NCBI RefSeq assembly: GCF_050920415.1
Contig: NZ_CP169309.1
Strand: one strand, 5' to 3'
Origin: Escherichia coli
Lineage (GTDB): Bacteria; Pseudomonadota; Gammaproteobacteria; Enterobacterales; Enterobacteriaceae
DNA: 64,000 nt
Shown: positions 15,699 to 35,189 of the stretch, piece by piece
Position numbering within the stretch: position 1 is the first letter of the stretch
How the letters are laid out: the number at the start of each line of letters is the position of its first letter
The notes under the pieces: generated by a model
Told to the model about the DNA's origin: nothing
The model's database searches: none
Seen by the model: the letters and a program-made list of their open reading frames with translations, nothing else
Program-made: the position numbers and the translations under genes

Positions 15699-17309
15699 TC
15701 AATGTTTCACAATATACATAGTCCGGCTATACGCCACATCTTCCGGGTTATTAATGGGATAACCTTTCAGCCACGGCTTGATTAATCGTCCATTGGTATA
15801 TTGATAAATTGGTGCAATCGGTGCTTGCTCCATGAGGATTTTTTCTGCCGCATTGTAATCGGCATTACGCGCTTTAACGGTATTTTCCGTCGATGCCTGG
15901 GCCAAAACTTTGTCGTAGGCCGGGTTGTTAAAGCGTGAAATGTTGCCTGAATGCGTTGACGTTAATAATGTCAGGAAGGTGGAGGGTTCATTATAATCCC
16001 CCACCCACGAGGCGCGGATAACATCAAAATTACCTGTATTACGACTATCGATATAGGTTTTCCATTCCTGATTTTGCAGTTTGACATCTACACCAAGGTT
16101 CTTTTTCCACATCGATGCCACAGCAATCGCAATTTTTTGATGGTTTTCTGAAGTATTATACAAAAGCGTCAGCTTCAGCGGTTTTTGCGGACCATAACCG
16201 GCTGCGCTCAACAAAGTTTTTGCCTGCGCATTCAGTTCTTCCTGACTCATTTGTTCAAACGGCGAAGGCTCCGGCGTGAATCCGGCAGTAACATCTGGCG
16301 TAAAATGCCACGCTGGTTTTTCGCCCGTCCCCAACACTTTTTCGGTCATCAGGCGGCGATCTATCGTCATACTTAATGCCAGACGAACGCGCTGATCTGC
16401 CGTCGGCCCTTTTTGCGTGTTAAACGCATAATAATAGGTTCCGAGCTGCGGCGGTGTATAAACCTGCCCCGGAATATCCTTCAACAGCTTCTGATACATA
16501 TTTTTGGGGAAGGATTCGGTGATATCAATATCCCCCGCGAGATAACGCTTAGTGGCTGCGGATTCCTGATTAATTGGCAGGAAGGTCACTTTTTGCAACA
16601 CCGTTTTGGCGTTATCCCAATAATGGGTATTTGGCACCACGACCAGTTTTTCATTGACTACACGCTCTTTAAGAACATAAGCGCCATTGCCGACCAGATT
16701 TCCGGGTTTCGTCCACTCTTTCCCGCTTTCTACGTTAGCTTTTTGCACCGGGAAGAAGGCAAAATTGGCTGTTAAATTCACAAACCACGGCAACGGTTTA
16801 TCAAGCTGGATTTTCAAAGTACGGGCATCAACCGCGGTGACGCCTAGCTGATCAGGCGTAGCTTTACCATCAATAATCGCCTGTGCGTTGTTGATTCCCG
16901 CCAGCGCGGCAAACCAGGCAAACGGCGACAACGTTTTTGGGTCAACCAGACGTTGCCAGCTGTAGACAAAATCCTGTGCCGTTACCGGTGTGCCATCCGC
17001 CCATTTTGCGTTATCGCGCAGGGTGAAAGTCCAGATACGGTTGTCATTACTTTTCCACTGAGTCGCAACGCCGGGGACAATCTCCCCTTTCTCGTTCTGA
17101 TTCACCAGTCCTTCAAAAAGATCGCGAATGACCTGAATCTCTGGCAGACCCACGGCTTTAGCGGGATCCAGCGACGCAGGCTCATCTTTAATATGGCGCA
17201 CCAGCTCCTGCTTCTCTGCCAGTACTGTGCCGCTCGGAACTTCTGCAGCATACGAAAGAGACATTATGCAAAGTGGCAAAAACGATATATAAATCATGAT
17301 TTTATTCAT
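15699..17309 (-). CDS. mppA: murein tripeptide-binding periplasmic protein MppA (OppA paralogue) with replaced N-terminal signal peptide
   Basis: family-5 SBP sequence; mature part from SLSYAAEVPSG matches MppA; N-terminus MNKIMIYISFLPLCIM differs from the K-12 sequence as I recall it; start at 17309 chosen within longer track ORF. Confidence 0.78.
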   Translation of the reverse strand: MNKIMIYISFLPLCIMSLSYAAEVPSGTVLAEKQELVRHIKDEPASLDPAKAVGLPEIQVIRDLFEGLVNQNEKGEIVPGVATQWKSNDNRIWTFTLRDNAKWADGTPVTAQDFVYSWQRLVDPKTLSPFAWFAALAGINNAQAIIDGKATPDQLGVTAVDARTLKIQLDKPLPWFVNLTANFAFFPVQKANVESGKEWTKPGNLVGNGAYVLKERVVNEKLVVVPNTHYWDNAKTVLQKVTFLPINQESAATKRYLAGDIDITESFPKNMYQKLLKDIPGQVYTPPQLGTYYYAFNTQKGPTADQRVRLALSMTIDRRLMTEKVLGTGEKPAWHFTPDVTAGFTPEPSPFEQMSQEELNAQAKTLLSAAGYGPQKPLKLTLLYNTSENHQKIAIAVASMWKKNLGVDVKLQNQEWKTYIDSRNTGNFDVIRASWVGDYNEPSTFLTLLTSTHSGNISRFNNPAYDKVLAQASTENTVKARNADYNAAEKILMEQAPIAPIYQYTNGRLIKPWLKGYPINNPEDVAYSRTMYIVKH

Positions 17310-17351
17310 ATATTTTTTAACCTTAAAATAATATGGTACACACAATGGTAC

Positions 17352-17381
17352 ACAAAAAGAAACGAGGCGTTAGCCTCGTTT
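17352..17381 (-). terminator. rho-independent terminator after tail fiber gene
   Basis: hairpin aacgaggc-gtta-gcctcgtt followed on minus strand by TCTTTTTGTG. Confidence 0.55.
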
Positions 17382-17409
17382 CGCGGCGATGTTCTTCGCA
17401 CATCACCTC

Positions 17410-19782
17410 TTATTCTTCGCTTCCGGTCAACTGCTTAACAAGCGCAACCAGTTCGCTAACCTGATTTTCAAGATTGGTGATACGTTCATCCATGACAGTA
17501 ATGTTAGCACGTAAGCTGGCGTTTTCTTCTTCCAGTGCTGTAGCTTTCAACATTAAGGATTGTGTAACGTGCATTGTATCGAGCAATAAAGGCGTAGTAT
17601 CAAGCTCTTTCACCTCTATTTCTTTGTTGTTATTATCATAATGTGTTCTTGTTTTTACATATAACGGATCTATTAGTTCGGCTGATTGTGAAATAATGCC
17701 ACGCCGCACTCTTTCTTTTTCATCACCATTGAATACGAATGTTACGAAATCAAGGTTTTCTAAATTGCTCCACGCTTTATCTACGGTAGCGTGCTGCACA
17801 TTATGCTTAAATCTAATATCAGATATTGCATTTTTAGTAACCGTTGAGGTTTCTGTTACGGAATAATTATCCCATTTGGTAAAGTAAATGTTTGAATCAA
17901 ACGGGGCAATTTCAAGTCTTACTCCGTATTTGTTATCACTATCACCAACGCAGTTTAATGAAGTCCTAGCAAAACTAGTGGTATTGTGATGAATTAAACC
18001 GAGACTATACCAAGTCGCATACCCCGCTGAGGATGCTTGCCCTGCACTAAAATTGGAATTAAACGACCAGTTTTCACCTATATTAGTGTAAGGTACAACG
18101 AATGTTGCGCCGTGCGTTGGGATCTCACCCCAACTTAAAAGTTTTTGCGTTGTAGCCCTAAATGATGCTGATTCAAAAAGCCCGCTATCATTTACCGTAA
18201 TTCTCCCCTTGTTCCCTGATGTTTTATTTTCAACTTCAATAACTGCATAGTGGGATTGATCGATATACGCATCACCCCACATCGACACTTCGCATTCTGA
18301 GGCGTCACCGATCTTGTATACGGATTTTACAACACCTGTAGTTGATTTTGTTCCGGTTGATAGCCTTGTTTTGTCGGCGTTAATTACGCTCCAGGATGTA
18401 TTTGCAGCGGTAAAGCCACCAGATGCACGGATCACCCATACACCAACAAAGTTTCGTGTAAGAATTTCATCTGTTGATGCTCCATAAATCGGGCTACACC
18501 GTGACGCATCAAAAGTACATGTATTATAACGGCCTTCCAAAGCGGTTGTACCGCTAGGAATTGCATCACCTACACCGTCAGGAAATACACTGTTATCGGA
18601 GGAAAATGCACCATAAGATGTGCCAATGGCTTGCGCGTAACTCCCACCGGAATAAGTGGTAAAATAACCAGTAATATTTGGCGCGGCTGATTCAAATAGT
18701 TGTCCGTTTGCACTACTAACGCCACCATCACCTCGACCATAAAGCGCTCTGATCGATCCTTCTTGTATACCGTTTTTATCGGGAACGCGGAAAGTTGTTT
18801 CTCCGTCACCCGTGGAATATTTACCGCGTTGGAATTTATCAGCCAGCCATTCAGAATCATCTATAGCGCCCACCATTTGAGCGTAAGCCCACAATTCAGG
18901 CCAATCTGCACGGTTAAGTAATTGCCCGTCCGATGTAACCTCATAAGGCTGAATATAAGCGCGGCTATCGCGTAAGTGGAAATCCCCTACGCCGTAATTC
19001 ATAACACCGTTCATTGTTGGTCCGACTGTACCACTATTGATATAGTTCATTACCCAACGCATTGTTACAGCGTCGTAATCACTTACCGGATCGCCTGCTA
19101 ATGGCGTTGAACCTATTGGGCGAACGTTCAACCAGGCCGCCGCTCGGTCGGCAAGATCGGAAAGGTTATTTTGTATTCTTAGAAATGAATCCGGGTTTAT
19201 GTCGTTTTTGTACCCTTCCGCTATGTTTTTATATTCTTCGGCGTTAGCGGCGCTTTCTGCTGCGTTTACTGCCGCCCCTGTTGCGGTAACAGCCCCTTCT
19301 TCTGCTGTTTGTGCTGCTGCTTCTGCTGCTGCTTTAGATGATTCGGCGTCTGTTTTGTATTGCTGAGTTGTCGCTTTATCTGCGCTTACTTGCGCTGAGT
19401 CCGTGTGAACTTGGTTAACTAGTGCTATCAATCCATCAAGATCAAATTCCTGAAAAAATTCAACTGCGTTTGCAATTTCGGTTTCCTTGCCCTGATAGTA
19501 ACGCAGAGTTTCAGCAACATCTTGCGCTAAACCATCTACAGAAATCGAGTCTGAAAGCAGAATACTGAATTTTGTCCCGGCAGATATTGCAGGGTCGGCC
19601 GCAGGAGTTACTGATAATTCAGTTCCGCTCTTAATTTCGGTGATGGTAAATATCTGCACAGGATCGCTAACTGCAATCAGCGTGCACCCTTCCCGGATGA
19701 GCGAAAGCGGCGCGGTGAAGCTTGTCCCCAAGCCTGTAACAGTGTTACCACTAATAGCTATTGTTCCTGTTGTATAAATCAT
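17410..19782 (-). CDS. phage tail fiber protein with C-terminal intramolecular chaperone (peptidase S74-like) domain
   Basis: 790 aa; Ala/Glu-rich coiled region; C-terminal SDIRFKHN motif typical of self-cleaving chaperone domains; terminal coiled coil; GGAG RBS. Confidence 0.72.
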   Translation of the reverse strand: MIYTTGTIAISGNTVTGLGTSFTAPLSLIREGCTLIAVSDPVQIFTITEIKSGTELSVTPAADPAISAGTKFSILLSDSISVDGLAQDVAETLRYYQGKETEIANAVEFFQEFDLDGLIALVNQVHTDSAQVSADKATTQQYKTDAESSKAAAEAAAQTAEEGAVTATGAAVNAAESAANAEEYKNIAEGYKNDINPDSFLRIQNNLSDLADRAAAWLNVRPIGSTPLAGDPVSDYDAVTMRWVMNYINSGTVGPTMNGVMNYGVGDFHLRDSRAYIQPYEVTSDGQLLNRADWPELWAYAQMVGAIDDSEWLADKFQRGKYSTGDGETTFRVPDKNGIQEGSIRALYGRGDGGVSSANGQLFESAAPNITGYFTTYSGGSYAQAIGTSYGAFSSDNSVFPDGVGDAIPSGTTALEGRYNTCTFDASRCSPIYGASTDEILTRNFVGVWVIRASGGFTAANTSWSVINADKTRLSTGTKSTTGVVKSVYKIGDASECEVSMWGDAYIDQSHYAVIEVENKTSGNKGRITVNDSGLFESASFRATTQKLLSWGEIPTHGATFVVPYTNIGENWSFNSNFSAGQASSAGYATWYSLGLIHHNTTSFARTSLNCVGDSDNKYGVRLEIAPFDSNIYFTKWDNYSVTETSTVTKNAISDIRFKHNVQHATVDKAWSNLENLDFVTFVFNGDEKERVRRGIISQSAELIDPLYVKTRTHYDNNNKEIEVKELDTTPLLLDTMHVTQSLMLKATALEEENASLRANITVMDERITNLENQVSELVALVKQLTGSEE

Positions 19783-19941
19783 CTCAACAACTCCATAATG
19801 TTAACTTATGTGTCAATTCTACCATTTTGCGATCTGTGTTACATTTCTGTCTTATACAAAATGTATTTGTTGATTTACATCAATGTTGTGAAAATGCGGT
19901 TTGTGGATACTACAACCAACGAAACAACGGAGGGTAAGACA

Positions 19942-20181
19942 ATGAAAGGCTTAAAAAATATCGCTATCGCTGCAATGGTTGCTGGTCTGGTTGGTTGTGC
20001 TGATATGCCGAAACGTGAATGCACGGCAATTTATCAAACTGGCGGTAATGAGTATGCGGTTGCAGTCTTCGGTGTCGCGGATGTTGGTGGTCACAAAATG
20101 GCTAAGGCTGGGTATCCATTTAATTTTCAATGGGTGAGCGTTGACCACTTCAAGAAAACGGATTGCCCGGAATTGAATTAA
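19942..20181 (+). CDS. small lipoprotein (moron, opposite strand to tail genes)
   Basis: 79 aa; GGAGGG RBS; signal peptide with lipobox LVGC; own upstream promoter-like element. Confidence 0.5.
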   Translation: MKGLKNIAIAAMVAGLVGCADMPKRECTAIYQTGGNEYAVAVFGVADVGGHKMAKAGYPFNFQWVSVDHFKKTDCPELN

Positions 20182-20771
20182 TCATAGGCGTCGGTTTTAA
20201 TGGCGGTGATAGCGTTCCCGTGGTTAATATAGCCAGTTGGTGCATATACGCTACCCGCCTGGATGCCGTAAATTCTAGTTGTGCTTCCGTTGTAATAAGC
20301 CGCCGCATAAATGGATGCACTACCCTGTCCAACGAGCGCCCCTAACAATTGGGGGCAAATAGCATAAGAACCGGATAACGTTTGGTCTATATAAATTCCG
20401 CCGCTTGATCCTGCCGTCCCAACGGTTACAAGGTCTGTTAATATTCTTGATTCATTAGTTAGCACTAGTTCCCCGGAAGCGTTCCAAATAGCCATTCCCC
20501 ACTTCGGCAGCGATGGCGGGAAAATAGTGAAAATATACGCATACCCCGAACCAGCCCCGATTAGTAAAGTTGATGGGCTATTTCTATAAGCTAATACAGC
20601 GGCGGCGGTAGTGCTTTTTACAAATACCATCACGGGCTTCCCGGATGGCACGGCGACGGTTTGATTCGATGATGTTAATGTCACCCGTTCATATAAGCAA
20701 AGCGGCGTTGCTTCCGGTGTAACGAAAATATTCCCGTTACTTAATCTCAAATAAGCTCCGAAGGTTGCCAT
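20178..20771 (-). CDS. hypothetical phage tail-associated protein (MATFG paralogue, 197 aa)
   Basis: start overlaps stop of upstream paralogue (TAATG); shares N-terminal MATFG with 20771..21082; Gly/Ser/Thr/Ala-rich. Confidence 0.4.
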   Translation of the reverse strand: MATFGAYLRLSNGNIFVTPEATPLCLYERVTLTSSNQTVAVPSGKPVMVFVKSTTAAAVLAYRNSPSTLLIGAGSGYAYIFTIFPPSLPKWGMAIWNASGELVLTNESRILTDLVTVGTAGSSGGIYIDQTLSGSYAICPQLLGALVGQGSASIYAAAYYNGSTTRIYGIQAGSVYAPTGYINHGNAITAIKTDAYD

Positions 20772-21082
20772 TAAGCCACCTCCGCAAATATAACAATTTC
20801 ACACTGTGACGCGGGCCATATATTAGCGCCTACCGTATCCCCTGCCGAGGAAATGGAAACAGTACCACCCGAAATAGTGATCTTTCTGCGCGTCGTTGAC
20901 GTTGTGCCATAATCAAGCGTCATCCCATAAGATAATTTGCATCCGGTCGGCACTGTAAAGGTATATGTGCCGGATACCTGCCCGGATGATAAGGAAATAT
21001 AACCAACCACAACGGAAGGTTTAATTCCATAGTTATTAGCATTGCCGCTGGCGTCCCAGGTCGCTACGCCGAAAGTAGCCAT
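20771..21082 (-). CDS. hypothetical phage tail-associated protein (MATFG paralogue, 103 aa)
   Basis: AAGGAGG RBS; directly downstream of J. Confidence 0.4.
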   Translation of the reverse strand: MATFGVATWDASGNANNYGIKPSVVVGYISLSSGQVSGTYTFTVPTGCKLSYGMTLDYGTTSTTRRKITISGGTVSISSAGDTVGANIWPASQCEIVIFAEVA

Positions 21083-21134
21083 AATTACACCTCCTTAATA
21101 AAAAACTGAGGCCGAACAAGTCGGCCCCTTAATT

Positions 21135-24100
21135 CTACCATGATCCGGTAATTCGCCCAATCTGGACGCGCAAAACCCCGTTACCGTCTTTTACCGAAAT
21201 AGTGGTATTAGTTAATTTCATCGCGCCCTCACCACTCACCGCGCCGTAGTTTTCGAATGTCCCGCCTTTATCCAGTTTCCATCCGGTACTGCCGGAAACA
21301 TAGTTATTTGACTGGATGTAAGAACCTATTTTCGCGTTGGTGATTGAGGCGTCTTTTATAAATGCTTCGCGAACATACATAGCGCCGTTTTCAACATAAA
21401 ATGGTGTCGTATATGTGCCGTTGGCGGCTGTCATTAATACGAAGCGGTCAACAAGAAAAATACATTGTGATTGCGTATTTGCGCCATCACCAGTTACCCC
21501 AAGCGATATTCCTGACGCGTATTTCATACCGTTGTTATCAGTAGCGATCTTGAGACTCCAAGTTGCCGACATATCACCATTAATATTGGTAATTGCTGTT
21601 TTGTTTTCCTCAATAAGCACTGATTGCCCATTAATTGATGCGGTTACTTCGCTAATTTGCTGCGCGGTTGCTTTTTCAAGCGTAACCATTGCTTGTTCAA
21701 GGTTTGTGACCTTCCCTTGAATATCATCACTTATTTTTGCTTCAAGCTCTGATAATGCTTTTGCTGTTGCCTCTTTTTCCGTTGCGACAACTTCATCTAT
21801 ACGCGTGATCTCTGCTTTTGATTGTTTCAACTGAGCGGAAAGTGTGCGTCTTGATGTTGTTTGAGCTACGGAATTATTAAGAAGCGCAATGGAAACGTTT
21901 TGCAAGCGGGCGCGAGTTTGTGTTAGTTCGCTATCCTGTTCCGAAAGCTCGACACCTATTTCGTCAATACGACTTTCATGAACCCCTAACCCCTCTTCGT
22001 TATTCTGGACGCGATTAATTAGATCTGATGTGGTATCCTTCAGATCGGTAACATCCCCTTTAAGTGTGCTCGTGTCACTAATCAACCCTTGAAATTGCTC
22101 GCTTTCCATGACTTCTTTCGTCACGAAATCTGTAATTTCGTCGAAGTCCTCCGTAGGCTTCCCGGATGCCTCAATAAAATCTGACACACCGAACGCGTTG
22201 CGGGTGCGAATGTACACATAATACATGTGGCCTGTGCTCATGCCGCCGAACGTCCATTGATAACCACGTCCGGTATACTGCGCTGACGTGGTTATGGTTG
22301 CCGGATCCGTAATCCTGTTTTCTCCGGCGTAATAAAATTCATATGCCGTATCAGTGGTGAGTGTTGTTTTGCTTATCGGGTAGACAGTAGCCTGAAATAC
22401 ACCAGGCACCCAATTTACACCGACAGGCGCGGATGGCGCTCCAATCACCAGATCGACGATGCTTTCTGCACCCTTCATGCCAGTGTCATTTCTGCCGCGA
22501 ACACCTAACGTGTATGAACCAGCATCAATGCCATAAAAATCATAACTGTATTTCGTGGTTTCATAGCTTTTAACCACCGCACCATCTGCATTGTATATGC
22601 GGATCTCGAATGTCATGCGATGAGTGGTAGTCTGTGTCTCCCACGTTGCGCGGCATTGAACTGTTTCCGATCCAATGTTTACTACCTTCAGATTTTCGAT
22701 GTTCGGCACACGGAAGTGATTAAGCGTGTCGCTGTTGATTTCGAAGATTGCGCCTTCATCGACTACGGCTTGTTTGTTAGGGTCGTGCTGCGCGGCTTCG
22801 ATAGTGTATACGCTGTTATTTTGTGTTTCTGCTACGCTGGTGATCCTACACAAAACTGGTTTTGCTGCGTTAGTTGATACAGCAAAAACAGTGCCATTTC
22901 GAATCCATGTTGGGGCCGCAGCAAGGGTGATATTGTTTCCGTTAACTCCGGTGATCTGGTGTTTTTTAAATTTGCCATCGCTATCAAGAAGGCTTATTGT
23001 GTCGCCAGCGGTCACATATTCAGAATCAACCTTATCTACAGTGATCACACGTCCATTGTTAGAGACAATACGACCGCCTAAGCGAGCGCCAGCACGGTTA
23101 TTGTCGAGTATCTCGATGATATCACCTGGCGTAAAGTGAATCGCGTCACGGGCCATTTTAAACGTGAATTTTGAAGGCTCGCGCTTCGCTGTTTCTATCA
23201 GCCATTTACCCGCCCGGTGCGCTTGCCCGCGTGATGTACACCCGAAAGCCTCCAGCGTGGTTTCGTTGTAGCCGTCACGGGCGATTAGTTCATCATCTGC
23301 GACATACTCTTTTGATTGTTCCCAGCCGTTTTCCGGATCAGTCCATGACACAATTACCGCGTTGTAGCATTCTGATCGCGCGATACTTGAACGGGTAAAT
23401 GCACCATCCACGACGTTTGCGTTAGTGATGGTTGCGATTGGGTCTTGTGGTGCATCAATCATTATAGTAAGGCGCTGACCATCCCATAACGCTATACCAC
23501 GGAACATCCCGGCGATGTTGTCCAGTAGGTCGCGGGCGCTCATTTGCTCTGTGATGTACGCGTTTAGCGTGACGCGCGGCTCTAAGCCACCATAGCCATC
23601 ATCAACCAACTGATCGCAGTATTGAGAGAGCGTATACAAAGCACCATCATCAACATCGATATAACCAGCCTGTCGAGCAAGGCCAAAACGCTCGTTTTTA
23701 ACCAAGTAGCGGAATATCCACGCCGGGTTATTTGTGTATGCCTTTTTAAGTCCGCCAAGCCATAAACCGGAATAATTTCGTTTTTCCGGGTCGTAGTTAT
23801 CCGGTACATCGACAATCAGCCCACGCAGATGATAAGTGCGTGTAGGTGTATCGGAGTACTGGTCATGGTCAATTACCGCGCCAGCTACAGCAGTGTGAGG
23901 ATAAGACAAGTTATCGTCGATGATTTCGCTATAACTGTTCCAGCGGGTATCGTTCTGTAATAGGTCGCTTACACTATCAGCCGTCACGCGGCGCACGCGA
24001 ATATCAAATGGCTTTTCATCCGGCGCATCAATGATATGAGACTCCAGATATTCACCGCTAATCTTACCCGGACCGATTTGTACGGCCTTAACCGCCGACC

Positions 24101-24554
24101 AGGTGGAAGACGAGGACGGTTTAACATCGATTGCCATAATGACAGACGTTTCTTTCTGGTTTGATTGGTTATCGCTTTCCACCAGTGAATCCACGCCAAT
24201 ATTTAGCCGGACGCGCGTCACGTTCGGATCTGATACCGTCCTGACCAGTGGCGTATCATGCTTTACCTGTGCGTTAACCATCACCGTTGATTCAATGGCG
24301 TTAAAGCCGTTGATCGGTGACTGGTCGGCAGTACCCGGACGCCAGGCGACACTAACGCCTGGAATGCTGGTATTACCTACCGCATCCGTAACAGGAGTGT
24401 CATTAAGCATTACGCAGTTTAACGGCGCGGCAGTATTGACAGGCCCATAAATCGGCCCTTCGCTCAATATATCAAGCACGCGATAAAACTGCTTATGGAA
24501 CAAGTTATCGTTTATTAATGTTGGTGTTTTTGCTTTACCACCGCCGCCGCCCAT
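21135..24554 (-). CDS. tail tip / host specificity protein J
   Basis: 1139 aa; lambda gpJ-like length, position and sequence character. Confidence 0.9.
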   Translation of the reverse strand: MGGGGGKAKTPTLINDNLFHKQFYRVLDILSEGPIYGPVNTAAPLNCVMLNDTPVTDAVGNTSIPGVSVAWRPGTADQSPINGFNAIESTVMVNAQVKHDTPLVRTVSDPNVTRVRLNIGVDSLVESDNQSNQKETSVIMAIDVKPSSSSTWSAVKAVQIGPGKISGEYLESHIIDAPDEKPFDIRVRRVTADSVSDLLQNDTRWNSYSEIIDDNLSYPHTAVAGAVIDHDQYSDTPTRTYHLRGLIVDVPDNYDPEKRNYSGLWLGGLKKAYTNNPAWIFRYLVKNERFGLARQAGYIDVDDGALYTLSQYCDQLVDDGYGGLEPRVTLNAYITEQMSARDLLDNIAGMFRGIALWDGQRLTIMIDAPQDPIATITNANVVDGAFTRSSIARSECYNAVIVSWTDPENGWEQSKEYVADDELIARDGYNETTLEAFGCTSRGQAHRAGKWLIETAKREPSKFTFKMARDAIHFTPGDIIEILDNNRAGARLGGRIVSNNGRVITVDKVDSEYVTAGDTISLLDSDGKFKKHQITGVNGNNITLAAAPTWIRNGTVFAVSTNAAKPVLCRITSVAETQNNSVYTIEAAQHDPNKQAVVDEGAIFEINSDTLNHFRVPNIENLKVVNIGSETVQCRATWETQTTTHRMTFEIRIYNADGAVVKSYETTKYSYDFYGIDAGSYTLGVRGRNDTGMKGAESIVDLVIGAPSAPVGVNWVPGVFQATVYPISKTTLTTDTAYEFYYAGENRITDPATITTSAQYTGRGYQWTFGGMSTGHMYYVYIRTRNAFGVSDFIEASGKPTEDFDEITDFVTKEVMESEQFQGLISDTSTLKGDVTDLKDTTSDLINRVQNNEEGLGVHESRIDEIGVELSEQDSELTQTRARLQNVSIALLNNSVAQTTSRRTLSAQLKQSKAEITRIDEVVATEKEATAKALSELEAKISDDIQGKVTNLEQAMVTLEKATAQQISEVTASINGQSVLIEENKTAITNINGDMSATWSLKIATDNNGMKYASGISLGVTGDGANTQSQCIFLVDRFVLMTAANGTYTTPFYVENGAMYVREAFIKDASITNAKIGSYIQSNNYVSGSTGWKLDKGGTFENYGAVSGEGAMKLTNTTISVKDGNGVLRVQIGRITGSW

Positions 24555-24566
24555 AATAACCCCCTA

Positions 24567-25097
24567 TTAACTTACAACGTCCAGCGCGTCTTTATTGTTG
24601 GTTGTATCAATACCCAGGGATCCAACATTCGAACCTATTTTCATTTCACCCAATAAAATTGGAACGGGACGGCCCTGGCCTACTCTGTTTTCTACACTGG
24701 TGTAACTGTTATTTGTGATGCTATTATCCTGCGCACTTTCCGCTGATGTTTTTACTTTCATGTTTCGGGCCATGAAAATAGAAAACGCGATGCTTGCAAC
24801 GGAAAGGCCGATTAACAGCCAGCCAACCACACCGATCCCTGCGATACCACCTTCTACCACTGGCGCAACAATAATTGTTGTTCCGTCAGGGTATTCACTA
24901 TTAACGGCAGCAGGTGCGGTTTTTTCGTCGTAATCTTTCCCGGCAATGCGTAAGCGTAATGGCGTACTTAAAAACGCTCGCTTAAATTCCTGATTCTGTG
25001 CGGTCAATAAGCGAAGCCCTTGCGCGGGCGTATTAACGTTTAAACACACTTTGCTGTAATATCTTCGAAGATTGCCCGTAAATCTAAATTTGAGCAT
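24567..25097 (-). CDS. tail assembly protein I
   Basis: 176 aa between K and J; hydrophobic stretch; start overlaps K 3' end as in lambda. Confidence 0.65.
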   Translation of the reverse strand: MLKFRFTGNLRRYYSKVCLNVNTPAQGLRLLTAQNQEFKRAFLSTPLRLRIAGKDYDEKTAPAAVNSEYPDGTTIIVAPVVEGGIAGIGVVGWLLIGLSVASIAFSIFMARNMKVKTSAESAQDNSITNNSYTSVENRVGQGRPVPILLGEMKIGSNVGSLGIDTTNNKDALDVVS

Positions 25098-25771
25098 TTG
25101 TCAGATCTCCATATTGAATGCGTTTGTCGAACATACGCTGGCCGCATTTGCTCGCGGCGGCTTAATAGTCCGGCATGGTCATGATGCAAAACCGTGTTAT
25201 CACCCAGGTAAAGCATTGCGTGACATGGATCCGCGCCTTTAAACGGCTGCCGGATGATCACGTCACCAGGCTGGATGTTTTGCGTGTCAATCTGAAAAAA
25301 ACCGTTTAGCGGCAAGTTTTTTAAATACAGGTTTTCACCGCGTAGCCACCACCCATCAAGGCGATCGAAGTCCGGCAGGTCTACGCCGCAAAGGTGATAG
25401 GCATCCCGAAAAAGCGTGTAACAATCAGTTGTCCCGTGTACAAATTTACGTCCTAGCAAGTGCGCCACCGGACGGAACTTCCTGATCTTGCCGCCTGAAT
25501 ATAAAAACCACGGCAGCCCGGAAATAACATGCTGTTGTCGATCCCGTGCCGACAATACCGGAATATCATCAACGTGGGAGTGAAAAACGGCGGTTATAAC
25601 GCCCAATTCGTCAGCTTTGATGTAATCGTCCGGCAAAATTTTAAAGCTGTTATGCGGCGTCTCAGACACGTTCACGCACGGGTAAAAATATTCATTGTCT
25701 ATCACCAGTCCGCAAACTTCCTCAAACGGATGTGCGGCGGCATAACGAAACATTTTGTCTTTCAGCGTCAT
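25040..25771 (-). CDS. tail assembly protein K (JAB/MPN plus NlpC/P60 domains)
   Basis: FHSHVDDIP JAMM-like motif and Cys/His peptidase region; start ATGA-coupled to L stop. Confidence 0.8.
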   Translation of the reverse strand: MTLKDKMFRYAAAHPFEEVCGLVIDNEYFYPCVNVSETPHNSFKILPDDYIKADELGVITAVFHSHVDDIPVLSARDRQQHVISGLPWFLYSGGKIRKFRPVAHLLGRKFVHGTTDCYTLFRDAYHLCGVDLPDFDRLDGWWLRGENLYLKNLPLNGFFQIDTQNIQPGDVIIRQPFKGADPCHAMLYLGDNTVLHHDHAGLLSRREQMRPAYVRQTHSIWRSDKCSNLDLRAIFEDITAKCV

Positions 25772-25773
25772 AA

Positions 25774-26478
25774 TCAACCTACCTTGCTTGATCCTGGAAA
25801 ACATGAGATCGGCAATGGATTTGGACGCGGGAAACGCAAGCGACAACCGCTTAGGCGGTGGCTGCACCTGTCTAATGTTGGATCGTTTGTCGGCTCGTCT
25901 TTGTCTGTAGCAACTGGCCCGCCAGAGTACGCACAGCCATCACCTCTATACTGCCACTGGCAAACGTCAGCAAGAATGGTGCGGCCTGGGATCACCGCCT
26001 TATCTGCATCAATTGGCGTTGACAACTCATATTGCACCTGATCCGCTGTTTCTTCACTCATGGCCTCTATAACGTAAAAGGACACCGCCTCAATAGATGG
26101 ATCAGCGTCAGGATTGCCATTTGGGAAGTTAACAGCGTCAAGGTATTTCACTTCCACCTGGCGGCGCGTAACCTTCATGCCTCGAAGGTCGTTATAGTCG
26201 GTATTCATCCCGGTAATGAGTCCGCCAATGTTTGCTACAGCCATTTGAGGGCGAGAATAAACTCCTTCGTTTTTCATTTCGAAGCCAGTAGCCTCGATTG
26301 GATAGCTGTTATAAGCCACGCCCTTCCAGATGACCGGACCGTAATAACCATTCGCGCCGGAATGGAAGCGGACAACCTCGCCACCAAGGGGAGTAAGGTC
26401 CAATTCGAACAAGTCAATGATTGCGCCGACTCCCGCATCGACGGAATCAATAATCATCTCTGTAGGTATATTGCGCAT
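25774..26478 (-). CDS. minor tail protein L
   Basis: 234 aa from MRNIPTEMI with AAGGTGA RBS; lambda gpL-like C-terminal Cys motif. Confidence 0.82.
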   Translation of the reverse strand: MRNIPTEMIIDSVDAGVGAIIDLFELDLTPLGGEVVRFHSGANGYYGPVIWKGVAYNSYPIEATGFEMKNEGVYSRPQMAVANIGGLITGMNTDYNDLRGMKVTRRQVEVKYLDAVNFPNGNPDADPSIEAVSFYVIEAMSEETADQVQYELSTPIDADKAVIPGRTILADVCQWQYRGDGCAYSGGPVATDKDEPTNDPTLDRCSHRLSGCRLRFPRPNPLPISCFPGSSKVG

Positions 26479-26616
26479 TTTATCACCTTGTTGTTTTGTG
26501 ATCTGCATCACACCGTGAATGCCAAAATGGATTGATAGCGTGATTTACAATATGTATATTTTACTCAAACGAACGGTAGTAAACAAAATGGCACAGTTTG
26601 GAACAGGATAGGACAC

Positions 26617-26775
26617 TATGAGATCCGCAAAATACGCAGAAAAAGTTTTCGTTGAAGTGAAAGGCGACATGAAAAAATTTATGGATGTTCTTATCAAAGA
26701 GATGGGAAAACCGTTCCATATAGCCGAACGTCAGTATTACGCTTGCAAGGCTAATAGCTACAACAGATACGCATG
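26617..26775 (+). CDS. moron cassette A small protein A1 (52 aa)
   Basis: AGGA RBS; opposite strand to tail operon; MRSAKYAEKVFVEVKGDMKKFMDVLIKEMGKPFHIAERQYYACKANSYNRYA. Confidence 0.4.
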
Positions 26776-26891
26776 ACAATAAACACAAAGGTAACACTAT
26801 GCAAAAATATCGTCTTGATGTGTGGATGGCTGGAAATAAAGATTGGGAAGGTTTCGGATTATTTGACAGCCGCGAACTGGCTAACGACTAA
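26772..26891 (+). CDS. moron cassette A small protein A2 (39 aa)
   Basis: ATG overlaps A1 stop (ATGA); weak otherwise. Confidence 0.25.
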   Translation, partial: HDNKHKGNTMQKYRLDVWMAGNKDWEGFGLFDSRELAND

Positions 26892-26963
26892 GGGGAAAAA
26901 CTTGTTAACTTCTTTGGACGGGCCAGGGAGTTTTAAGTAACCCCGGTACAGATAGAAAATAAG

Positions 26964-27152
26964 GTGGAAGAGATGAAATACGATATTGATAACGACGCTT
27001 GCTTTAAACAAAACTTTGCGGATTCTATGGATCAGTCTTGCCCTGAAATACACGCACACGGTTTCCCGGCAGATAATCCAGACATGAAACGCGAATACGA
27101 AAAAGCGGCGAAAGATTTCTGCATCGACAATCTGGGCGCATTCGATAGATAA
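26964..27152 (+). CDS. moron cassette A small acidic protein A3 (62 aa)
   Basis: AAGGTGGA RBS; four Cys; no recognised domain. Confidence 0.45.
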   Translation: MEEMKYDIDNDACFKQNFADSMDQSCPEIHAHGFPADNPDMKREYEKAAKDFCIDNLGAFDR

Positions 27153-27161
27153 GGCGGCAAT

Positions 27162-27410
27162 ATGGCGAGGCGAAAACATAGCGATTATATGTACACGCTG
27201 AAGCAGGCCGCCCGCCTTATCGGTTATCATGAACACGAATTTATTGATTTGCTGATTGAGCGCGGGATTTTATACCAGGTCTGTTTAACGCTGTACCCGA
27301 AAGCGAAATACTTGCAGGAAAAGTTATTCATCATCATGACGGATGAAAACCAGGTTAATCACTCATTCGTCACTGCCAAAGGCGTTAATTATCTGCGCGA
27401 TAACTTATAG
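27162..27410 (+). CDS. moron cassette A putative HTH DNA-binding protein A4 (82 aa)
   Basis: AAGGCGG RBS; YTLKQAARLIGYHEHEFIDLLIERGIL resembles an HTH. Confidence 0.45.
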   Translation: MARRKHSDYMYTLKQAARLIGYHEHEFIDLLIERGILYQVCLTLYPKAKYLQEKLFIIMTDENQVNHSFVTAKGVNYLRDNL

Positions 27411-27420
27411 GTGACAGATT

Positions 27421-27537
27421 ATGAAAATAGAAGTTTTGGCGCTAATAGTAATGGGATTGATAGTATTTGGTGTTCATGCTGTAGATCTGGACTGGAAAAC
27501 GATAGCAGAAAATATAGCGTTAATGGAAATGGAATAA
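27421..27537 (+). CDS. moron cassette A small hydrophobic peptide A5 (38 aa)
   Basis: AGGTGA RBS; N-terminal hydrophobic helix. Confidence 0.35.
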   Translation: MKIEVLALIVMGLIVFGVHAVDLDWKTIAENIALMEME

Positions 27538-27542
27538 TAATA

Positions 27543-27568
27543 ACCCCGCTTCGCGCGGGGTCGTGTTT
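27543..27568. terminator. bidirectional rho-independent terminator
   Basis: ccccgc-ttcg-cgcgggg hairpin with T-rich flanks on both strands. Confidence 0.55.
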
Positions 27569-27752
27569 ATACGCCATCAAGTAAAAATAAAACTTCCTTG
27601 CCTTCTCTTGATCTGCATCCTACATAACCGTCACCCATGTCATGAAGATACCAGGTCTCACCATTATCAGCTTTTACAGTAAGATCGTTGATTTCATAGT
27701 CGTCAAACAATGTAAAAGCGCCCGTGCGGTCCACTACACAAATAGCATACAT
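27567..27752 (-). CDS. hypothetical small protein downstream of gpM (61 aa)
   Basis: GGAGG RBS before ATG at 27752; upstream ATG of track ORF overlaps M. Confidence 0.4.
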   Translation of the reverse strand: MYAICVVDRTGAFTLFDDYEINDLTVKADNGETWYLHDMGDGYVGCRSREGKEVLFLLDGV

Positions 27753-27765
27753 ATTGACACCTCCA

Positions 27766-28119
27766 TTAATTGACAACTTGCTCAAAAGTTGCGTTTAGCG
27801 TGTACAAAGACCCGTCTTTAGTCATGCTCCATCGGCGGCAAACAAAAAGCCTTTGCACGTTATCCATCGACGGCGACCAGTAAAAAGCCTCGACCGCGCC
27901 GCGCGCCCTCAAGAATGCTTCCGCCTGGATTGCTACGTTTTCACCATCACCACATCCGGCGCTACTGCCTTTAAATACCAGGGTGTAGCTATCAAGCAAT
28001 GGATTGATACCTTTTACCTGTCTTTGCTCATAACCATCGCCCAGCTTAACAACGGATACGTCCGGCTCCCTGGTCACGCTGTAGCTTCGTTGTGGCGTCC
28101 ATCTGAACACTTCCGGCAT
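27766..28119 (-). CDS. minor tail protein M
   Basis: 117 aa; lambda gpM-like, C-terminal FEQVVN as in lambda M. Confidence 0.82.
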   Translation of the reverse strand: MPEVFRWTPQRSYSVTREPDVSVVKLGDGYEQRQVKGINPLLDSYTLVFKGSSAGCGDGENVAIQAEAFLRARGAVEAFYWSPSMDNVQRLFVCRRWSMTKDGSLYTLNATFEQVVN

Positions 28120-28308
28120 AAAACCCCCATAAGTTACATTTTGTATATATCTTTACGCGCTTCTACGCGAAAAATAAGATCTTCATCACAATGATTATAG
28201 CTAGTTTACAAAATGGCTTCACATAGCACACAACAAGATGTATATAAAAAGCAAGAAGAAAAGCAGTACCAACGAAGGAGGCCCAAAAATGAAACGCTAT
28301 GAGTAGTA

Positions 28309-28443
28309 ATGCTAAACAACGCATTCGAACAAGTGGAAATAGCAATCGTTAAGGGTTTCGACGACGCATTTAAATACGGTCAATTCATGATTAATGCAAA
28401 AGAAGATGAATACCGTGATTTCTTCCTGAAGGCTCTTAATTAA
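28309..28443 (+). CDS. moron cassette B small protein B1 (44 aa; possible antitoxin-like partner)
   Basis: preceded by GGAGG and a 5-codon uORF; 20 nt upstream of B2. Confidence 0.35.
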   Translation: MLNNAFEQVEIAIVKGFDDAFKYGQFMINAKEDEYRDFFLKALN

Positions 28444-28462
28444 GAATAATCGGGGGTGAGCT

Positions 28463-28717
28463 ATGAAACTGGTAGCGATTGACAAAAACCTGAAAGTACA
28501 GAAAAACGCACAGGACCGGATTATCAAGAAAGGTAAGGAACTGCTTAAAGCATTTTTGAAGAAAGAGGCGCGCCCCAAAAAGTTACGCGATGGTTATGGC
28601 TTTAAATTCGATATCAATCATGACTGGCGGCTGTTCAGCGAAGACCTCAAAGTCTGGTTAATAATCGATCACCTGGAATATAACAGGCACTGCGGGGTTA
28701 AAGGGGCGCATAAGTGA
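28463..28717 (+). CDS. moron cassette B protein B2 (84 aa), RelE/YoeB-like toxin fold candidate
   Basis: GGGGGTGA RBS; basic N-terminal helix then HDWRLF and DHLEY segments resembling YoeB/RelE by eye. Confidence 0.4.
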   Translation: MKLVAIDKNLKVQKNAQDRIIKKGKELLKAFLKKEARPKKLRDGYGFKFDINHDWRLFSEDLKVWLIIDHLEYNRHCGVKGAHK

Positions 28718-28725
28718 GGCGGGAT

Positions 28726-28818
28726 ATGGAGGACGATAAATTCACCTGGCGGGAGATCTGGAATATTTGGTTGGTGATGTTTTCTCGCAGCTATATAGCC
28801 AGAAACGGAAGATTGTAA
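28726..28818 (+). CDS. moron cassette B small peptide B3 (30 aa)
   Basis: GAGG RBS; Trp-rich hydrophobic peptide. Confidence 0.3.
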   Translation: MEDDKFTWREIWNIWLVMFSRSYIARNGRL

Positions 28819-28836
28819 TTTGCGGAGGAAAATAAA

Positions 28837-29013
28837 ATGAAAAACCCGGCAAATAAAAGCAATGTAAAACGTATAGCCTGGATCGTGAAATGGATGGATA
28901 GTAAAGGAGACACATATACTGAACCATTTTTCAAACATACTGATGCAGTATTTGCAAGAAGCGTAAGAGGCGGGAAAATTGAAAGAGGATATACAAGTTT
29001 TGAGAATAACTAA
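28837..29013 (+). CDS. moron cassette B small basic protein B4 (58 aa)
   Basis: GGAGG RBS; followed by terminator. Confidence 0.4.
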   Translation: MKNPANKSNVKRIAWIVKWMDSKGDTYTEPFFKHTDAVFARSVRGGKIERGYTSFENN

Positions 29014-29020
29014 AATATAA

Positions 29021-29050
29021 CCCCGGCATTGTACCGGGGTTTTGTTTATT
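29021..29050. terminator. rho-independent terminator (bidirectional)
   Basis: ccccgg-cattgta-ccgggg hairpin followed by TTTTGTTTATTT. Confidence 0.6.
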
Positions 29051-31385: not shown

Positions 31386-31536
31386 GATTTAACCTCATGC
31401 AAAATGTGATCTATGCATCTATTTTATACAAAATGTCTTTATTTTAACGATACCGTTTTGTATAGATGATGTAGGGAAAGATAGAAGAGATGCAGGAAGG
31501 ACGGATGTCCCGGAGGAAGTGAAAGAGGATAAGGAA

Positions 31537-31620
31537 ATGAGAAACGTAAACTACCGTCCCAACGAATATGAACGCTATGCGGACCTTATCGAAGAAATGT
31601 TAAAAGCACTTAAAAAATAA
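31537..31620 (+). CDS. moron cassette C small peptide C1 (27 aa)
   Basis: AGGATAAGGAA RBS; MRNVNYRPNEYERYADLIEEMLKALKK. Confidence 0.3.
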   Translation: MRNVNYRPNEYERYADLIEEMLKALKK

Positions 31621-31681
31621 ACAATATGCGTGTATAACTAAGTTAAAGGAAGCATTTAGCAAATCAGAATAATTACAGGGG

Positions 31682-32101
31682 TTGATTATGAAACGGTTAG
31701 CAAAAATGGTACTTGCTGTGATTGCTGCACTGGCATTTAACGCGAACGCTAACGAGGCCATAAACATTAACTGTGAAGAAGTGGCAAACCATGTAGCCGC
31801 ATATCACGACATGATCAAAAAAGAACCAGCCGCACCCACAATTCTTTTTAAGGCAATTGATAAAAATTTTGAAGGGAAACCAGTTTGTGCTCGTTGGTTT
31901 AATTATGGCCTTGTAAACGAGGCTGCTGTAGGCGTAGTCTTTGAAAACAACAGCGAAATAAAAAACAGGATAGCTAACGAGTGTAAAGCAAATAAAGTTG
32001 CTTTCGCTGAAAGAATTTTTAATGAAGGCGGCGCTGGTGCAAAAAATCACGCAATTGTCGATTTAGGTAACGGTTTTATTGATATTGTTAGAATCAAATA
32101 A
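31682..32101 (+). CDS. moron cassette C secreted Cys-containing protein (139 aa)
   Basis: signal peptide ending AFNANA; four Cys; followed by terminator; opposite strand to tail genes. Confidence 0.5.
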   Translation: MIMKRLAKMVLAVIAALAFNANANEAININCEEVANHVAAYHDMIKKEPAAPTILFKAIDKNFEGKPVCARWFNYGLVNEAAVGVVFENNSEIKNRIANECKANKVAFAERIFNEGGAGAKNHAIVDLGNGFIDIVRIK

Positions 32102-32108
32102 GACAAAC

Positions 32109-32131
32109 GCCCGGATCTACCGGGCTTTTTC
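32109..32131 (+). terminator. rho-independent terminator
   Basis: gcccgg-atcta-ccgggc followed by TTTTT. Confidence 0.6.
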
Positions 32132-32803: not shown

Positions 32804-32848
32804 CCTAAAAGAAAGGGGCCAAATGGCCCCGATTATTGATCTTGTTTG

Positions 32849-33325: not shown

Positions 33326-33337
33326 GTTAATTACCTC

Positions 33338-34185: not shown

Positions 34186-34187
34186 GA

Positions 34188-34556: not shown

Positions 34557-34734
34557 AGCCGTAACTCCAGCTAATGACCTTTGGATGATTTTTCGCCACG
34601 CGCGGGCAAAGAATCACCCATTCACCAGCATCATTGAGATATGCCGCCACCTGTCGCCCGGTGTCAGTCTTCACCCATACGCGGGTAAACGGCTTCGGCA
34701 TTAGTGGCTTCGGTAGTGTTAGGTCGTTCCACAT
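34549..34734 (-). CDS. hypothetical small protein (61 aa)
   Basis: ORF coupled between neighbours. Confidence 0.25.
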   Translation of the reverse strand: MWNDLTLPKPLMPKPFTRVWVKTDTGRQVAAYLNDAGEWVILCPRVAKNHPKVISWSYGYE

Positions 34735-34736
34735 TG

Positions 34737-35123: not shown

Positions 35124-35140
35124 TTTGTTTGCTCCACATA

Positions 35141-35169: not shown

Positions 35170-35189
35170 AGTTACAGGAAACGTTCTAA

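What the first reader, a model, noticed from the sequence alone, without database searches (positions are those of the whole stretch)
17250..17410. Prophage junction inside the 5' end of mppA with a replacement signal peptide
From SLSYAAEVPSG onward the protein matches MppA, but the first 16 residues (MNKIMIYISFLPLCIM) differ from the K-12 N-terminus as I recall it (MKHSVSVTCCALLVSSI). The replacement still looks like a signal peptide (hydrophobic core, SYA-AE cleavage site). The tail fiber terminator sits 45 bp upstream. This pattern fits a phage that integrates within a coding sequence and supplies a new 5' end from its own attachment site.
Basis: partly seen in the sequence, partly recalled or inferred. 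Interest (0 to 1): 0.55.

Follow-up and report, generated by a model that had tools for sequence, protein, structure and literature searches.

The report
Prophage gives mppA a new start
A mEp021-type prophage has integrated inside the first codons of the E. coli gene mppA, and its attachment-site arm supplies a new start codon and a new, unrelated but signal-peptide-like N-terminus; this is a tidy and largely ordinary example of phage integration that keeps the target reading frame intact.

Summary

**The junction**
- mppA lies on the minus strand at 15699-17309.
- Identity with prophage-free E. coli ends at 17261/17262.
- The first 16 codons (17262-17309, MNKIMIYISFLPLCIM) are phage DNA. They replace the native 17 codons (MKHSVSVTCCALLVSSI).
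- Of 5417 complete E. coli genomes with a match, 5410 keep the native, uninterrupted site. Only 2 carry this junction.

**Evidence for site-specific integration**
- In those two relatives, the far prophage end has a tyrosine integrase next to the orphaned native mppA 5' end.
- The shared core is 8 bp, TCTCTTTC.
- One free viral contig carries the intact attP, in which the same ATG opens a 27-codon ORF across the core.
- The phage belongs to the mEp021-like (mEpimmI) group. A 2025 paper already reports integration "at the initiation region of mppA" for one prophage (LSU61), but I found no mention of the N-terminal replacement in its main text.

**Is the new N-terminus functional?**
- It lies within the natural range of MppA signal peptides in length, charge and hydrophobicity, and the host cleavage site SYA|AE is kept.
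- A signal-like in-frame N-terminus arises in only about 0.3-2.4% of null sequences.
- Expression is unproven: the native promoter is now about 53 kb away, and only a weak promoter-like site lies upstream.

Interest is modest.

The parts
15699..17309 (-). Chimeric mppA CDS, 536 codons. Codons 1-16 come from the phage; from the core onward the sequence is host.
   Evidence: ORF listing and sequence. PGAP annotates the equivalent 1611-nt ORF as full-length mppA in GF66.2 and LSU61.
17254..17261 (-). 8-bp common core TCTCTTTC (mppA codons Ser-Leu-Ser). This is the crossover region shared by attB, attP, attL and attR.
   Evidence: Alignments of both junctions, attB and attP. Coordinates.
17245..17251 (-). 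Host half of the core-flanking inverted repeat (ATGCTGC). In native attB its partner is GCAGCAT on the other side of the core (TCAGCAGCAT ... ATGCTGCAGA, 9/10 symmetric). Here the partner is replaced by the phage sequence GCATAAT at 17263-17269.
   Evidence: Read from the sequences. Coordinates. Its role as a core-type Int binding site is inferred.
17262..17309 (-). Phage-derived start codon plus 15 codons (MNKIMIYISFLPLCIM). These form the n-region and most of the h-region of the new signal peptide.
   Evidence: Breakpoint. The same sequence occurs in the intact attP of viral contig L007. Signal-peptide metrics.
17292..17304 (+). IHF-consensus-like site AATCATGATTTTA (one mismatch to WATCAANNNNTTR), lying inside the replacement codons.
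   Evidence: Pattern scan. Function is inferred from attP architecture only.
17310..17330 (-). A/U-rich leader with an SD-like AAGG at 17321-17324, 11 nt before the ATG.
   Evidence: Sequence. AAGG is invariant in six haplotypes.
17328..17355 (-). Weak promoter-like site TTGTGT-16-TATTAT (8 of 12 matches), overlapping the arm repeats.
   Evidence: Found by eye. It is below the 9/12 threshold of the scan, which found nothing on this strand. Candidate only.
17331..17356 (-). 26-nt unit holding two arm-type repeats (TTTGTGTACCA TTGTGTGTACCA TAT), presumed binding sites for the Int N-terminal domain.
   Evidence: Direct-repeat family D1 has one copy on this arm and two copies next to int in the intact attP. 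Coordinates.
17359..17382 (-). Intrinsic terminator of the tail-fibre (late) transcript.
   Evidence: Terminator scan: 10-bp stem with 6 GC pairs and a T-run. It is annotated as a terminator in mEp010 and mEp013.
17410..19782 (-). Tail-fibre gene, the last gene of the prophage at this end.
   Evidence: ORF listing. Homologous ORFs are annotated as tail fiber / Peptidase_S74.
17262..64000 (.). Body of the mEpimmI-type prophage. It runs off the window end. By synteny with GF66.2, the integrase end should lie about 6 kb beyond position 64000.
   Evidence: ORF map, synteny with GF66.2 and similarity to mEp phages.

Best explanation
This is the tail-fibre-side junction (attL/attR type) of an mEp021-like (mEpimmI) temperate phage carrying the 'type III' tyrosine integrase. 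The phage has integrated by Campbell-type site-specific recombination inside mppA.

**Shown**
- Strand exchange occurred within the 8-bp core TCTCTTTC, at codons 18-20 of native mppA.
- The phage attP arm between its arm-type Int sites and the core carries an ATG and 16 codons in the same frame as mppA. Integration therefore swaps the native 17 N-terminal codons for MNKIMIYISFLPLCIM and yields a full-length ORF.
- The host-encoded end of the signal peptide and its cleavage site (SLSYA|AE) are retained.

**Inferred**
- The new N-terminus acts as a Sec/SPase I signal peptide. If the gene is expressed, the mature periplasmic MppA is then identical to the wild-type protein.
- Transcription must come from the phage arm, where there is a weak TTGTGT-16-TATTAT candidate, or from read-through, because the native promoter now sits at the far prophage end.
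- At that far end the native promoter is fused, with the native first 17 codons, to the rest of the phage's small ORF. It points into int.
For: **Breakpoint and rarity.** The breakpoint is at 17261/17262 and the native N-terminus is present in nearly all other genomes.

**Far junction.** Two complete genomes with the same junction show integrase, then core, then the orphan mppA 5' end, then pgrR.

**Intact attP.** A 54.5-kb viral contig carries the ATG and a 27-codon ORF running through the core, with int 140 nt downstream.

**attP architecture.** Arm-type repeats lie on both arms. The integrase has Arm-DNA-bind_3 plus Phage_integrase domains.

**Second lineage.** A lineage whose integrase is 88% identical uses the same core next to pgrR.

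**Phage identity and published site.** See (PMC11893012).

**Signal-peptide likeness.**
- One Lys in the n-region, an uncharged h-region, and a best 10-residue Kyte-Doolittle score of 2.27. Ten natural MppA-family signals score 1.83-2.58. Length is 21 aa against 22-23 aa.
- An in-frame signal-like N-terminus arises in 1.2% (ATG) or 2.4% (any start codon) of dinucleotide shuffles of the arm, and at 0.3-0.4% of all positions in the prophage.
- All six sequence haplotypes keep the ORF. The 6 inferred substitutions are 3 synonymous and 3 hydrophobic-conservative.

**Specificity to this integrase type.** Sister phages with type I and type II integrases share the terminator and first arm repeat but have no ATG or ORF in their arms.

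**Prevalence.** The chimeric protein occurs in dozens of assemblies, always with an intact mature part.
Against: - No consensus-grade promoter lies on the mppA strand between the terminator and the ATG.
- The SD-like AAGG is 11 nt from the ATG, which is suboptimal.
- The substitution pattern is not statistically significant: P is about 0.06-0.08 for at least 3 synonymous of 6, and about 0.25 for all 6 being tolerated.
- The arm is 75% A+T and contains an IHF-like site. T-rich codons would give hydrophobic residues regardless of any selection for a signal peptide.
- My signal-peptide criterion is a hand-made rule applied after the fact.
- mppA is dispensable in the laboratory (my own knowledge).
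- The integrase end of this particular prophage is not in the window, so the core duplication was shown in relatives, not in this genome.
Confidence: 0.78

Rival explanations
1. The integration is real, but the intact reading frame is a by-product. The AT-rich attP arm happens to contain an in-frame ATG and T-rich (hydrophobic) codons. Having lost its promoter, mppA is in effect silenced in lysogens, and nothing selects for the 'replacement signal peptide'.
For: - No 9/12 or better promoter on the coding strand.
- The SD is weak and distant.
- An in-frame ATG ORF of 10-30 codons arises in about 17% of shuffles.
- The substitution pattern is not significant.
- An IHF-like site lies inside the codons, so the sequence is constrained by attP function.
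- The sister type II phages leave abgT truncated, so this phage group does not generally repair its targets.
Against: - The full combination (in-frame start, positive n-region, uncharged hydrophobic h-region of the right length) is rare in null sequences, at 0.3-2.4%.
- It is kept in all six haplotypes.
- The arms of types I and II have no such ORF.
- The mature part of mppA shows no decay in any lysogen examined.
Confidence: 0.3
2. The 27-codon ORF that spans attP in the free phage (MNKIMIYISFLPLCIMSLSNATYRAQA) is primarily a phage element. It could be a leader ORF or promoter region for int, or a small membrane peptide. Its fusion to mppA would then be incidental to that role.
For: - In the intact attP the ORF lies directly upstream of int on the same strand, with no terminator in between.
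- The only promoter-like sequence upstream of int in the circular form is the same weak site that ends up in front of mppA after integration (and reading the sequence by eye).
Against: - Type I and type II relatives have equivalent arms and int genes but lack any such ORF.
- There is no evidence that the ORF is translated.
- This reading does not exclude the main explanation. Both could be true.
Confidence: 0.15
3. There is no phage junction at all, and the different N-terminus is just an allelic variant of mppA.
For: None found.
Against: - Sequence identity to 5414 genomes stops abruptly at 17261 or 17264.
- The divergent segment is contiguous with a tail-fibre gene and prophage.
- The identical segment sits in an unintegrated viral contig.
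- Lysogens carry the displaced native 5' end at the far prophage end.
Confidence: 0.01

Closest known systems
mEpimmI prophage of E. coli O157:H7 LSU61 with 'type III' integrase (Front Microbiol 2025, PMC11893012)
   Same: - Same phage group.
[quoted passage not shown]
- Same junction at about 91% identity, and the same core.
- The integrase protein in LSU61 and GF66.2 is the same accession, WP_206663893.1.
   Different: - The paper lists only LSU61 for this integrase type.
- In the main text I searched, it does not mention that the phage arm rebuilds the start codon and signal peptide.
- The window's haplotype is distinct. Its exact chimeric protein is not on record.
- I could not see this prophage's own integrase.
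Rac and rac-like prophages in ttcA (Liu et al., Sci Rep 2015, PMC4632033)
   Same: The prophage is integrated in the 5' coding end of a host gene. The gene stays open, and its N-terminus differs between lysogens and non-lysogens.
   Different: In Rac, attL and attR are near-identical copies, and only four residues change. Here the phage piece shows no similarity to the displaced 51 nt beyond about 12 bp next to the core. It replaces the start codon and a whole targeting signal.
Phage 21 and e14 in icd, and tRNA-gene integrating phages (own knowledge; Campbell's reviews of phage insertion sites)
   Same: An intragenic attB, with the phage arm restoring a complete gene after integration.
   Different: Those phages carry a homologous copy of the 3' end. 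Here the 5' end is replaced by a non-homologous sequence that is at best a functional analogue, and the native promoter is lost as well.
Lambda-type attP organisation (core flanked by arm-type Int sites and IHF sites) with a P4-family integrase
   Same: - attP is about 265 bp.
- Repeated arm-type motifs on both arms.
- An IHF-like site between arm and core.
- An 8-bp overlap region flanked by imperfect inverted repeats.
- An integrase with Arm-DNA-bind_3 plus catalytic domains.
   Different: Protein binding was not tested. attP lies upstream of int, between the late-operon terminator and int, rather than downstream of it as in lambda.

Membership tests
Campbell-type site-specific prophage integration by a tyrosine integrase | Abrupt loss of host homology at a defined point, with the uninterrupted site (attB) present in other strains | tested here: met
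   The breakpoint is at 17261/17262. attB is intact in 5410 of 5417 genomes.
Campbell-type site-specific prophage integration by a tyrosine integrase | The same short core at both prophage ends, flanking the element as a direct repeat | tested here: inconclusive
   Met in relatives GF66.2 and LSU61, with TCTCTTTC at both ends. The far end of this window's prophage lies beyond position 64000 and could not be read.
Campbell-type site-specific prophage integration by a tyrosine integrase | An intact attP in the unintegrated phage that equals the phage halves of the two junctions joined at the core | tested here: met
   Viral contig L007 8700-9026.
Campbell-type site-specific prophage integration by a tyrosine integrase | A tyrosine recombinase gene adjacent to attP, and arm-type repeats on both arms | tested here: met
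   The integrase carries PF13356 and PF00589 and lies 140-160 nt from the core in L004, L006 and L007. All of this is in relatives; in the window only one arm is visible (17331-17356).
mEpimmI (mEp021-like) phage group, integrase type III | Genome-wide nucleotide similarity and synteny with mEp021, mEp010 and others | tested here: met
   74-86% coverage at 87-90% identity over window 40000-64000. Synteny with the GF66.2 prophage.
mEpimmI (mEp021-like) phage group, integrase type III | A type III integrase sequence | not testable with these tools
   The int gene of this prophage is outside the window. Its type is inferred from the shared attachment arm and target site.
Phage integration that reconstitutes the target gene with a phage-borne copy of the displaced end (icd, tRNA, ttcA type) | The phage arm carries a sequence homologous to the displaced gene end | tested here: not met
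   Beyond the 8-bp core and about 12 partly matching flanking bases, the 48 phage nt (75% A+T) and the 51 native nt (51% A+T) are unrelated, and the peptides share only the initial Met.
Phage integration that reconstitutes the target gene with a phage-borne copy of the displaced end (icd, tRNA, ttcA type) | A full-length in-frame gene is restored after integration | tested here: met
   The ORF is 536 codons against 537 native. PGAP calls it mppA in relatives.
Sec-dependent, signal peptidase I signal peptide | A positively charged n-region, an uncharged hydrophobic h-region of about 10-15 residues, small residues at -3 and -1, and no lipobox or twin-arginine motif | tested here: met
   The peptide reads MNK / IMIYISFLPLCIMSL / SYA|AE. 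Its metrics lie within the range of ten natural MppA-family signals. LPLC does not fit the lipobox [LVI][ASTVI][GAS]C. This is a rule-based test only; no trained predictor was available.
Sec-dependent, signal peptidase I signal peptide | Directs export and is cleaved in vivo | not testable with these tools
   This needs a PhoA or Bla fusion, or N-terminal sequencing of periplasmic MppA from a lysogen.

The most novel reading that the evidence does not exclude
The type III attP-int cassette may have evolved as a reciprocal leader swap.

- On integration, the phage hands mppA a portable promoter, ribosome-binding region, start codon and signal peptide. The host keeps a working murein-tripeptide binding protein whose mature form is unchanged.
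- In return, the phage captures the host's mppA promoter and first 17 codons in front of int. Integrase expression in the lysogen would then be coupled to the host's control of peptidoglycan recycling.
Probability: 0.12. Interest if true: 0.6.

Novelty: new variant of a known kind. Interest (0 to 1): 0.33.

Why it matters
If the chimeric gene is expressed and exported, it would show that a phage can neutralise the cost of inserting into a coding sequence without carrying a copy of the gene end. Instead it would carry an unrelated stretch that does the same job: start codon plus export signal. This works because signal peptides are defined by physical properties rather than by sequence.

It also gives annotators a concrete caution. 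Automated pipelines call this gene an ordinary full-length mppA, although its promoter and first 16 codons are phage DNA.

In practice this is a small addition to the description of the mEpimmI phages, whose mppA site is already published. It is not a new principle.

Tried and rejected
1. **Looking for more independent copies of the phage arm.**
   - A metagenome scan with GCCACTTTGCNTAATNTCTCTTTC returned three unrelated chance matches.
   - Two viral-contig DNA scans and an integrase-based scan all returned the same single contig.
   - A 'distant' BLAST of the arm found only the two known E. coli genomes.
2. **Searching the protein database with the first 68 residues of the chimera.** This returned only natural MppA/OppA N-termini and no chimeric fragments. 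It gave no extra variants. It also gave no sign that the phage peptide was copied from another species' mppA, although that negative is weak.
3. **Exact-protein look-ups.** The window's own chimeric protein is not on record. Guessing N-terminus and allele combinations recovered more lysogens but no new coding variants.
4. **The mppA-side arm of the diverged lineage (88% integrase identity, L014/L015).** I could not retrieve it. It would have been the best independent test of ORF conservation.
5. **A synonymous versus non-synonymous argument.** With only 6 substitutions it is not significant, and I do not rely on it.
6. **Promoter scan.** Nothing reached the tool's threshold on the coding strand. 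The 8/12 site is offered only as a candidate.
7. **Lipoprotein and Tat readings of the new N-terminus.** I rejected both on motif grounds.
8. **The idea that the whole phage group repairs its targets.** I rejected this because type II relatives leave abgT annotated as truncated, and the arms of types I and II have no ORF.


Full report
**What is in the window.** The feature lies on the minus strand.
- An ORF of 536 codons starts at the ATG at 17309 and ends at 15699. It reads MNKIMIYISFLPLCIMSLSYAAEVPSG... and is otherwise MppA.
- To its left lie ynaI, ynaJ, uspE, fnr and ogt, in the usual E. coli order.
- To its right, on the same strand, a 790-codon tail-fibre ORF ends at 17410. It is followed by an intrinsic terminator with a 10-bp stem at 17359-17382 plus a T-run.
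- From 17262 to the window end the ORF map is that of a tailed temperate phage: tail, head, terminase, lysis, Erf/SSB, CI-like repressor and replication genes.

**Breakpoint.**
- A 301-nt probe across the site matches 5414 of 5426 complete E. coli genomes only up to window 17261 or 17264. Just two genomes, GF66.2 and O157:H7 LSU61, match across the whole probe.
- Alignment with prophage-free BL21(DE3) shows identity through ...CATACGAAAGAGA (17261) and unrelated sequence beyond it.
- On the coding strand the native gene reads ATG AAG CAC ... AGC AGC ATT | TCT CTT TCG TAT GCT GCA GAA.
- A probe spanning the native site is uninterrupted in 5410 of 5417 matching genomes. The native N-terminus is therefore the rule, and this junction is rare.

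**It is a site-specific integration.**
- In GF66.2 and LSU61 the prophage is about 54 kb long. Its far end carries a 406-aa tyrosine integrase (the same protein accession in both), then the sequence ...TAGCATTA GAAAGAGA AATGCTGCTGACC..., which is the displaced native mppA 5' end, and then pgrR.
- The two junctions share only the 8-bp core TCTCTTTC (coding strand).
- In attB the core sits inside a 10-bp imperfect inverted repeat, TCAGCAGCAT-T-TCTCTTTC-GT-ATGCTGCAGA. The phage counterpart matches it partially: GCATAAT-G-TCTCTTTC-TA-ATGCTAC.
- A 54.5-kb viral contig (L007) holds the unintegrated attP in this order: tail-fibre stop, terminator, arm repeats, ATG AAT AAA ATA ATG ... ATA ATG TCTCTTTC TAA TGC..., and int 140 nt further on.
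- In the free phage, the ATG opens a 27-codon ORF (MNKIMIYISFLPLCIMSLSNATYRAQA*) that runs through the core in the same frame as mppA.
- A 26-nt unit containing two TTGTGTACCA-type motifs occurs once on the tail-fibre arm (window 17331-17356) and twice next to int. This is as expected for arm-type binding sites of an integrase with an Arm-DNA-bind_3 domain.
- An IHF-consensus-like site (one mismatch) lies at 17292-17304, inside the new codons.
- A second lineage, with an integrase 88% identical, is inserted at exactly the same core next to pgrR.

**Identity of the phage, and what is already published.**
- Window 40000-64000 aligns over 74-86% of its length at about 87-90% identity to mEp010, mEp554, mEp044, mEp013, mEp515, mEp021 and MagusPhagus.
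- These are the Nus-dependent, non-lambdoid 'mEpimmI' phages described in Front Microbiol 2025 (PMC11893012).
- That paper sorts their integrases into four types. [quoted passage not shown]
- I searched its main text for 'signal peptide', 'disrupt' and 'motif III' and found nothing about a rebuilt N-terminus. I did not see its supplementary figures.

**Is the new N-terminus a plausible signal peptide?**
- The host still provides the end of the signal and the cleavage site (SLSYA|AE). The phage provides Met-Asn-Lys and a 13-residue uncharged hydrophobic run.
- Compared with the native signal and nine other natural MppA-family signals, the chimera is within range:

| Measure | Chimera | Natural signals |
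|---|---|---|
| Length | 21 aa | 22-23 aa |
| n-region charge | +1 | +1 to +2 |
| Best 10-residue Kyte-Doolittle score | 2.27 | 1.83-2.58 |

- It has no lipobox and no twin-arginine motif.
- I tested chance by fusing null sequences to the core in frame and applying one fixed rule. The rule requires a start codon giving 15-35 residues, net positive charge in the n-region, no charged residue afterwards, and a hydrophobic window of at least 1.8.
  - An in-frame ATG ORF of suitable length arose in 17% of 20,000 dinucleotide shuffles of the arm.
  - A signal-like N-terminus arose in only 1.2% (ATG starts) or 2.4% (ATG, GTG or TTG starts).
  - It arose at 0.3-0.4% of all positions of the prophage, taken on both strands.
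- All six haplotypes I recovered keep the ORF: the window, GF66.2, LSU61, L007, L029 and L030. The differences are K3 AAA/AAG, I4 ATC/ATA/ATT, S9L, I15V and M16I.
- With only six substitutions that pattern is not significant.
- Sister phages with type I (dgcM) and type II (abgT) integrases share the terminator and first arm repeat. They then diverge and have no ATG or ORF in the arm. Type II leaves abgT annotated as truncated. The ORF is therefore specific to the mppA-targeting cassette.
- The chimeric protein is recorded on dozens of contigs, always preceded by a tail-fibre gene and with an undamaged mature part.

**What is not shown.**
- Integration removes the native promoter. A 9/12 candidate, TTTGCA-18-AATAAT, lies 37-66 nt upstream of the native ATG. 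It is now about 53 kb away.
- Between the terminator and the new ATG, the scan finds no promoter on the coding strand.
- By eye there is TTGTGT-16-TATTAT (8/12) overlapping the arm repeats, and an SD-like AAGG 11 nt before the ATG.
- Whether the lysogen makes MppA is therefore open. My estimate that the chimera is expressed and exported is about even to slightly better than even.
- At the other end, the native promoter and first 17 codons are fused in frame to the rest of the phage ORF, giving MKHSVSVTCCALLVSSISLSNATYRAQA*. They point into int, with no terminator-like site in between. Host-driven int transcription in lysogens is possible, but this is purely inference.

**Comparison with known cases.**
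- Intragenic integration with repair of the target is classical. Phage 21 and e14 in icd, and tRNA genes, are examples from my own knowledge.
- A 5' case is documented for Rac in ttcA, where lysogens and cured strains differ at four N-terminal residues (PMC4632033).
- The present case differs in one respect. The phage piece is not a copy of the displaced end. It is an unrelated, AT-rich sequence that reproduces only the physical properties of a signal peptide, and it brings its own start codon.
- I therefore rate it a new variant of a known kind, at a site that is itself already published. Interest is modest.

**Dead ends.** These are listed under Tried and rejected. The most important is that I could not obtain the mppA-side arm of the lineage with 88% integrase identity. 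That arm would be the best available test of selection against coincidence.

Noticed in passing
L004 8310-8540 (GF66.2) and L006 7766-7992 (LSU61); expected about 6 kb beyond the window end: The reciprocal junction fuses the native mppA promoter and codons 1-17 in frame to the rest of the phage's small ORF, giving a 28-aa orphan peptide. It points into int about 140 nt downstream, with no terminator-like site in between. Integrase might therefore be transcribed from a host promoter in lysogens.
   Followed up: partly
L004 8813-9510 (GF66.2): An IS1 copy sits between the orphaned mppA 5' end and pgrR in GF66.2 but not in LSU61.
   Followed up: no
L009 979-2421 (strain 190); L008 2180-2570 (WCHEC025970): Sister mEpimmI prophages with other integrase types insert about 7-14 kb away, in abgT and dgcM. 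abgT is annotated as a C-terminally truncated pseudogene. Their attachment arms share the terminator and first arm repeat with this phage and then diverge, which marks the boundary of an exchangeable attP-int cassette.
   Followed up: partly
window 19798-20181 (+): An ORF lies on the strand opposite to the tail genes, between the tail-fibre gene and the next tail genes. An internal Met gives a lipoprotein-like N-terminus, MKGLKNIAIAAMVAGLVGC. It is probably one of the Lpp-type superinfection-exclusion morons described for this phage group (PMC11893012).
   Followed up: no
window 17305-17332 (+); L007 8806-8779 (-): A 9/12 promoter-like site (TTCATA-16-AATAAT) runs antisense to the new mppA start, overlapping the start codon and pointing towards the arm repeats. 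It is present in both the window and the free-phage attP. Its significance is unknown.
   Followed up: no
L001 1616-1631 (BL21 native mppA, minus strand): The native signal-peptide codons contain a small hairpin, GCTGTTGGTCAGCAGC, immediately before the T-rich core. The terminator scan flags it. The integrase target is thus a hairpin plus inverted-repeat structure inside the coding sequence.
   Followed up: no
protein P0160: An MppA-like fragment has a quite different, long N-terminus (…FMQNIISVICCILMISYFSLGYAADIPNG…). It is probably from another, AT-rich species and is not evidently related to the phage peptide.
   Followed up: no
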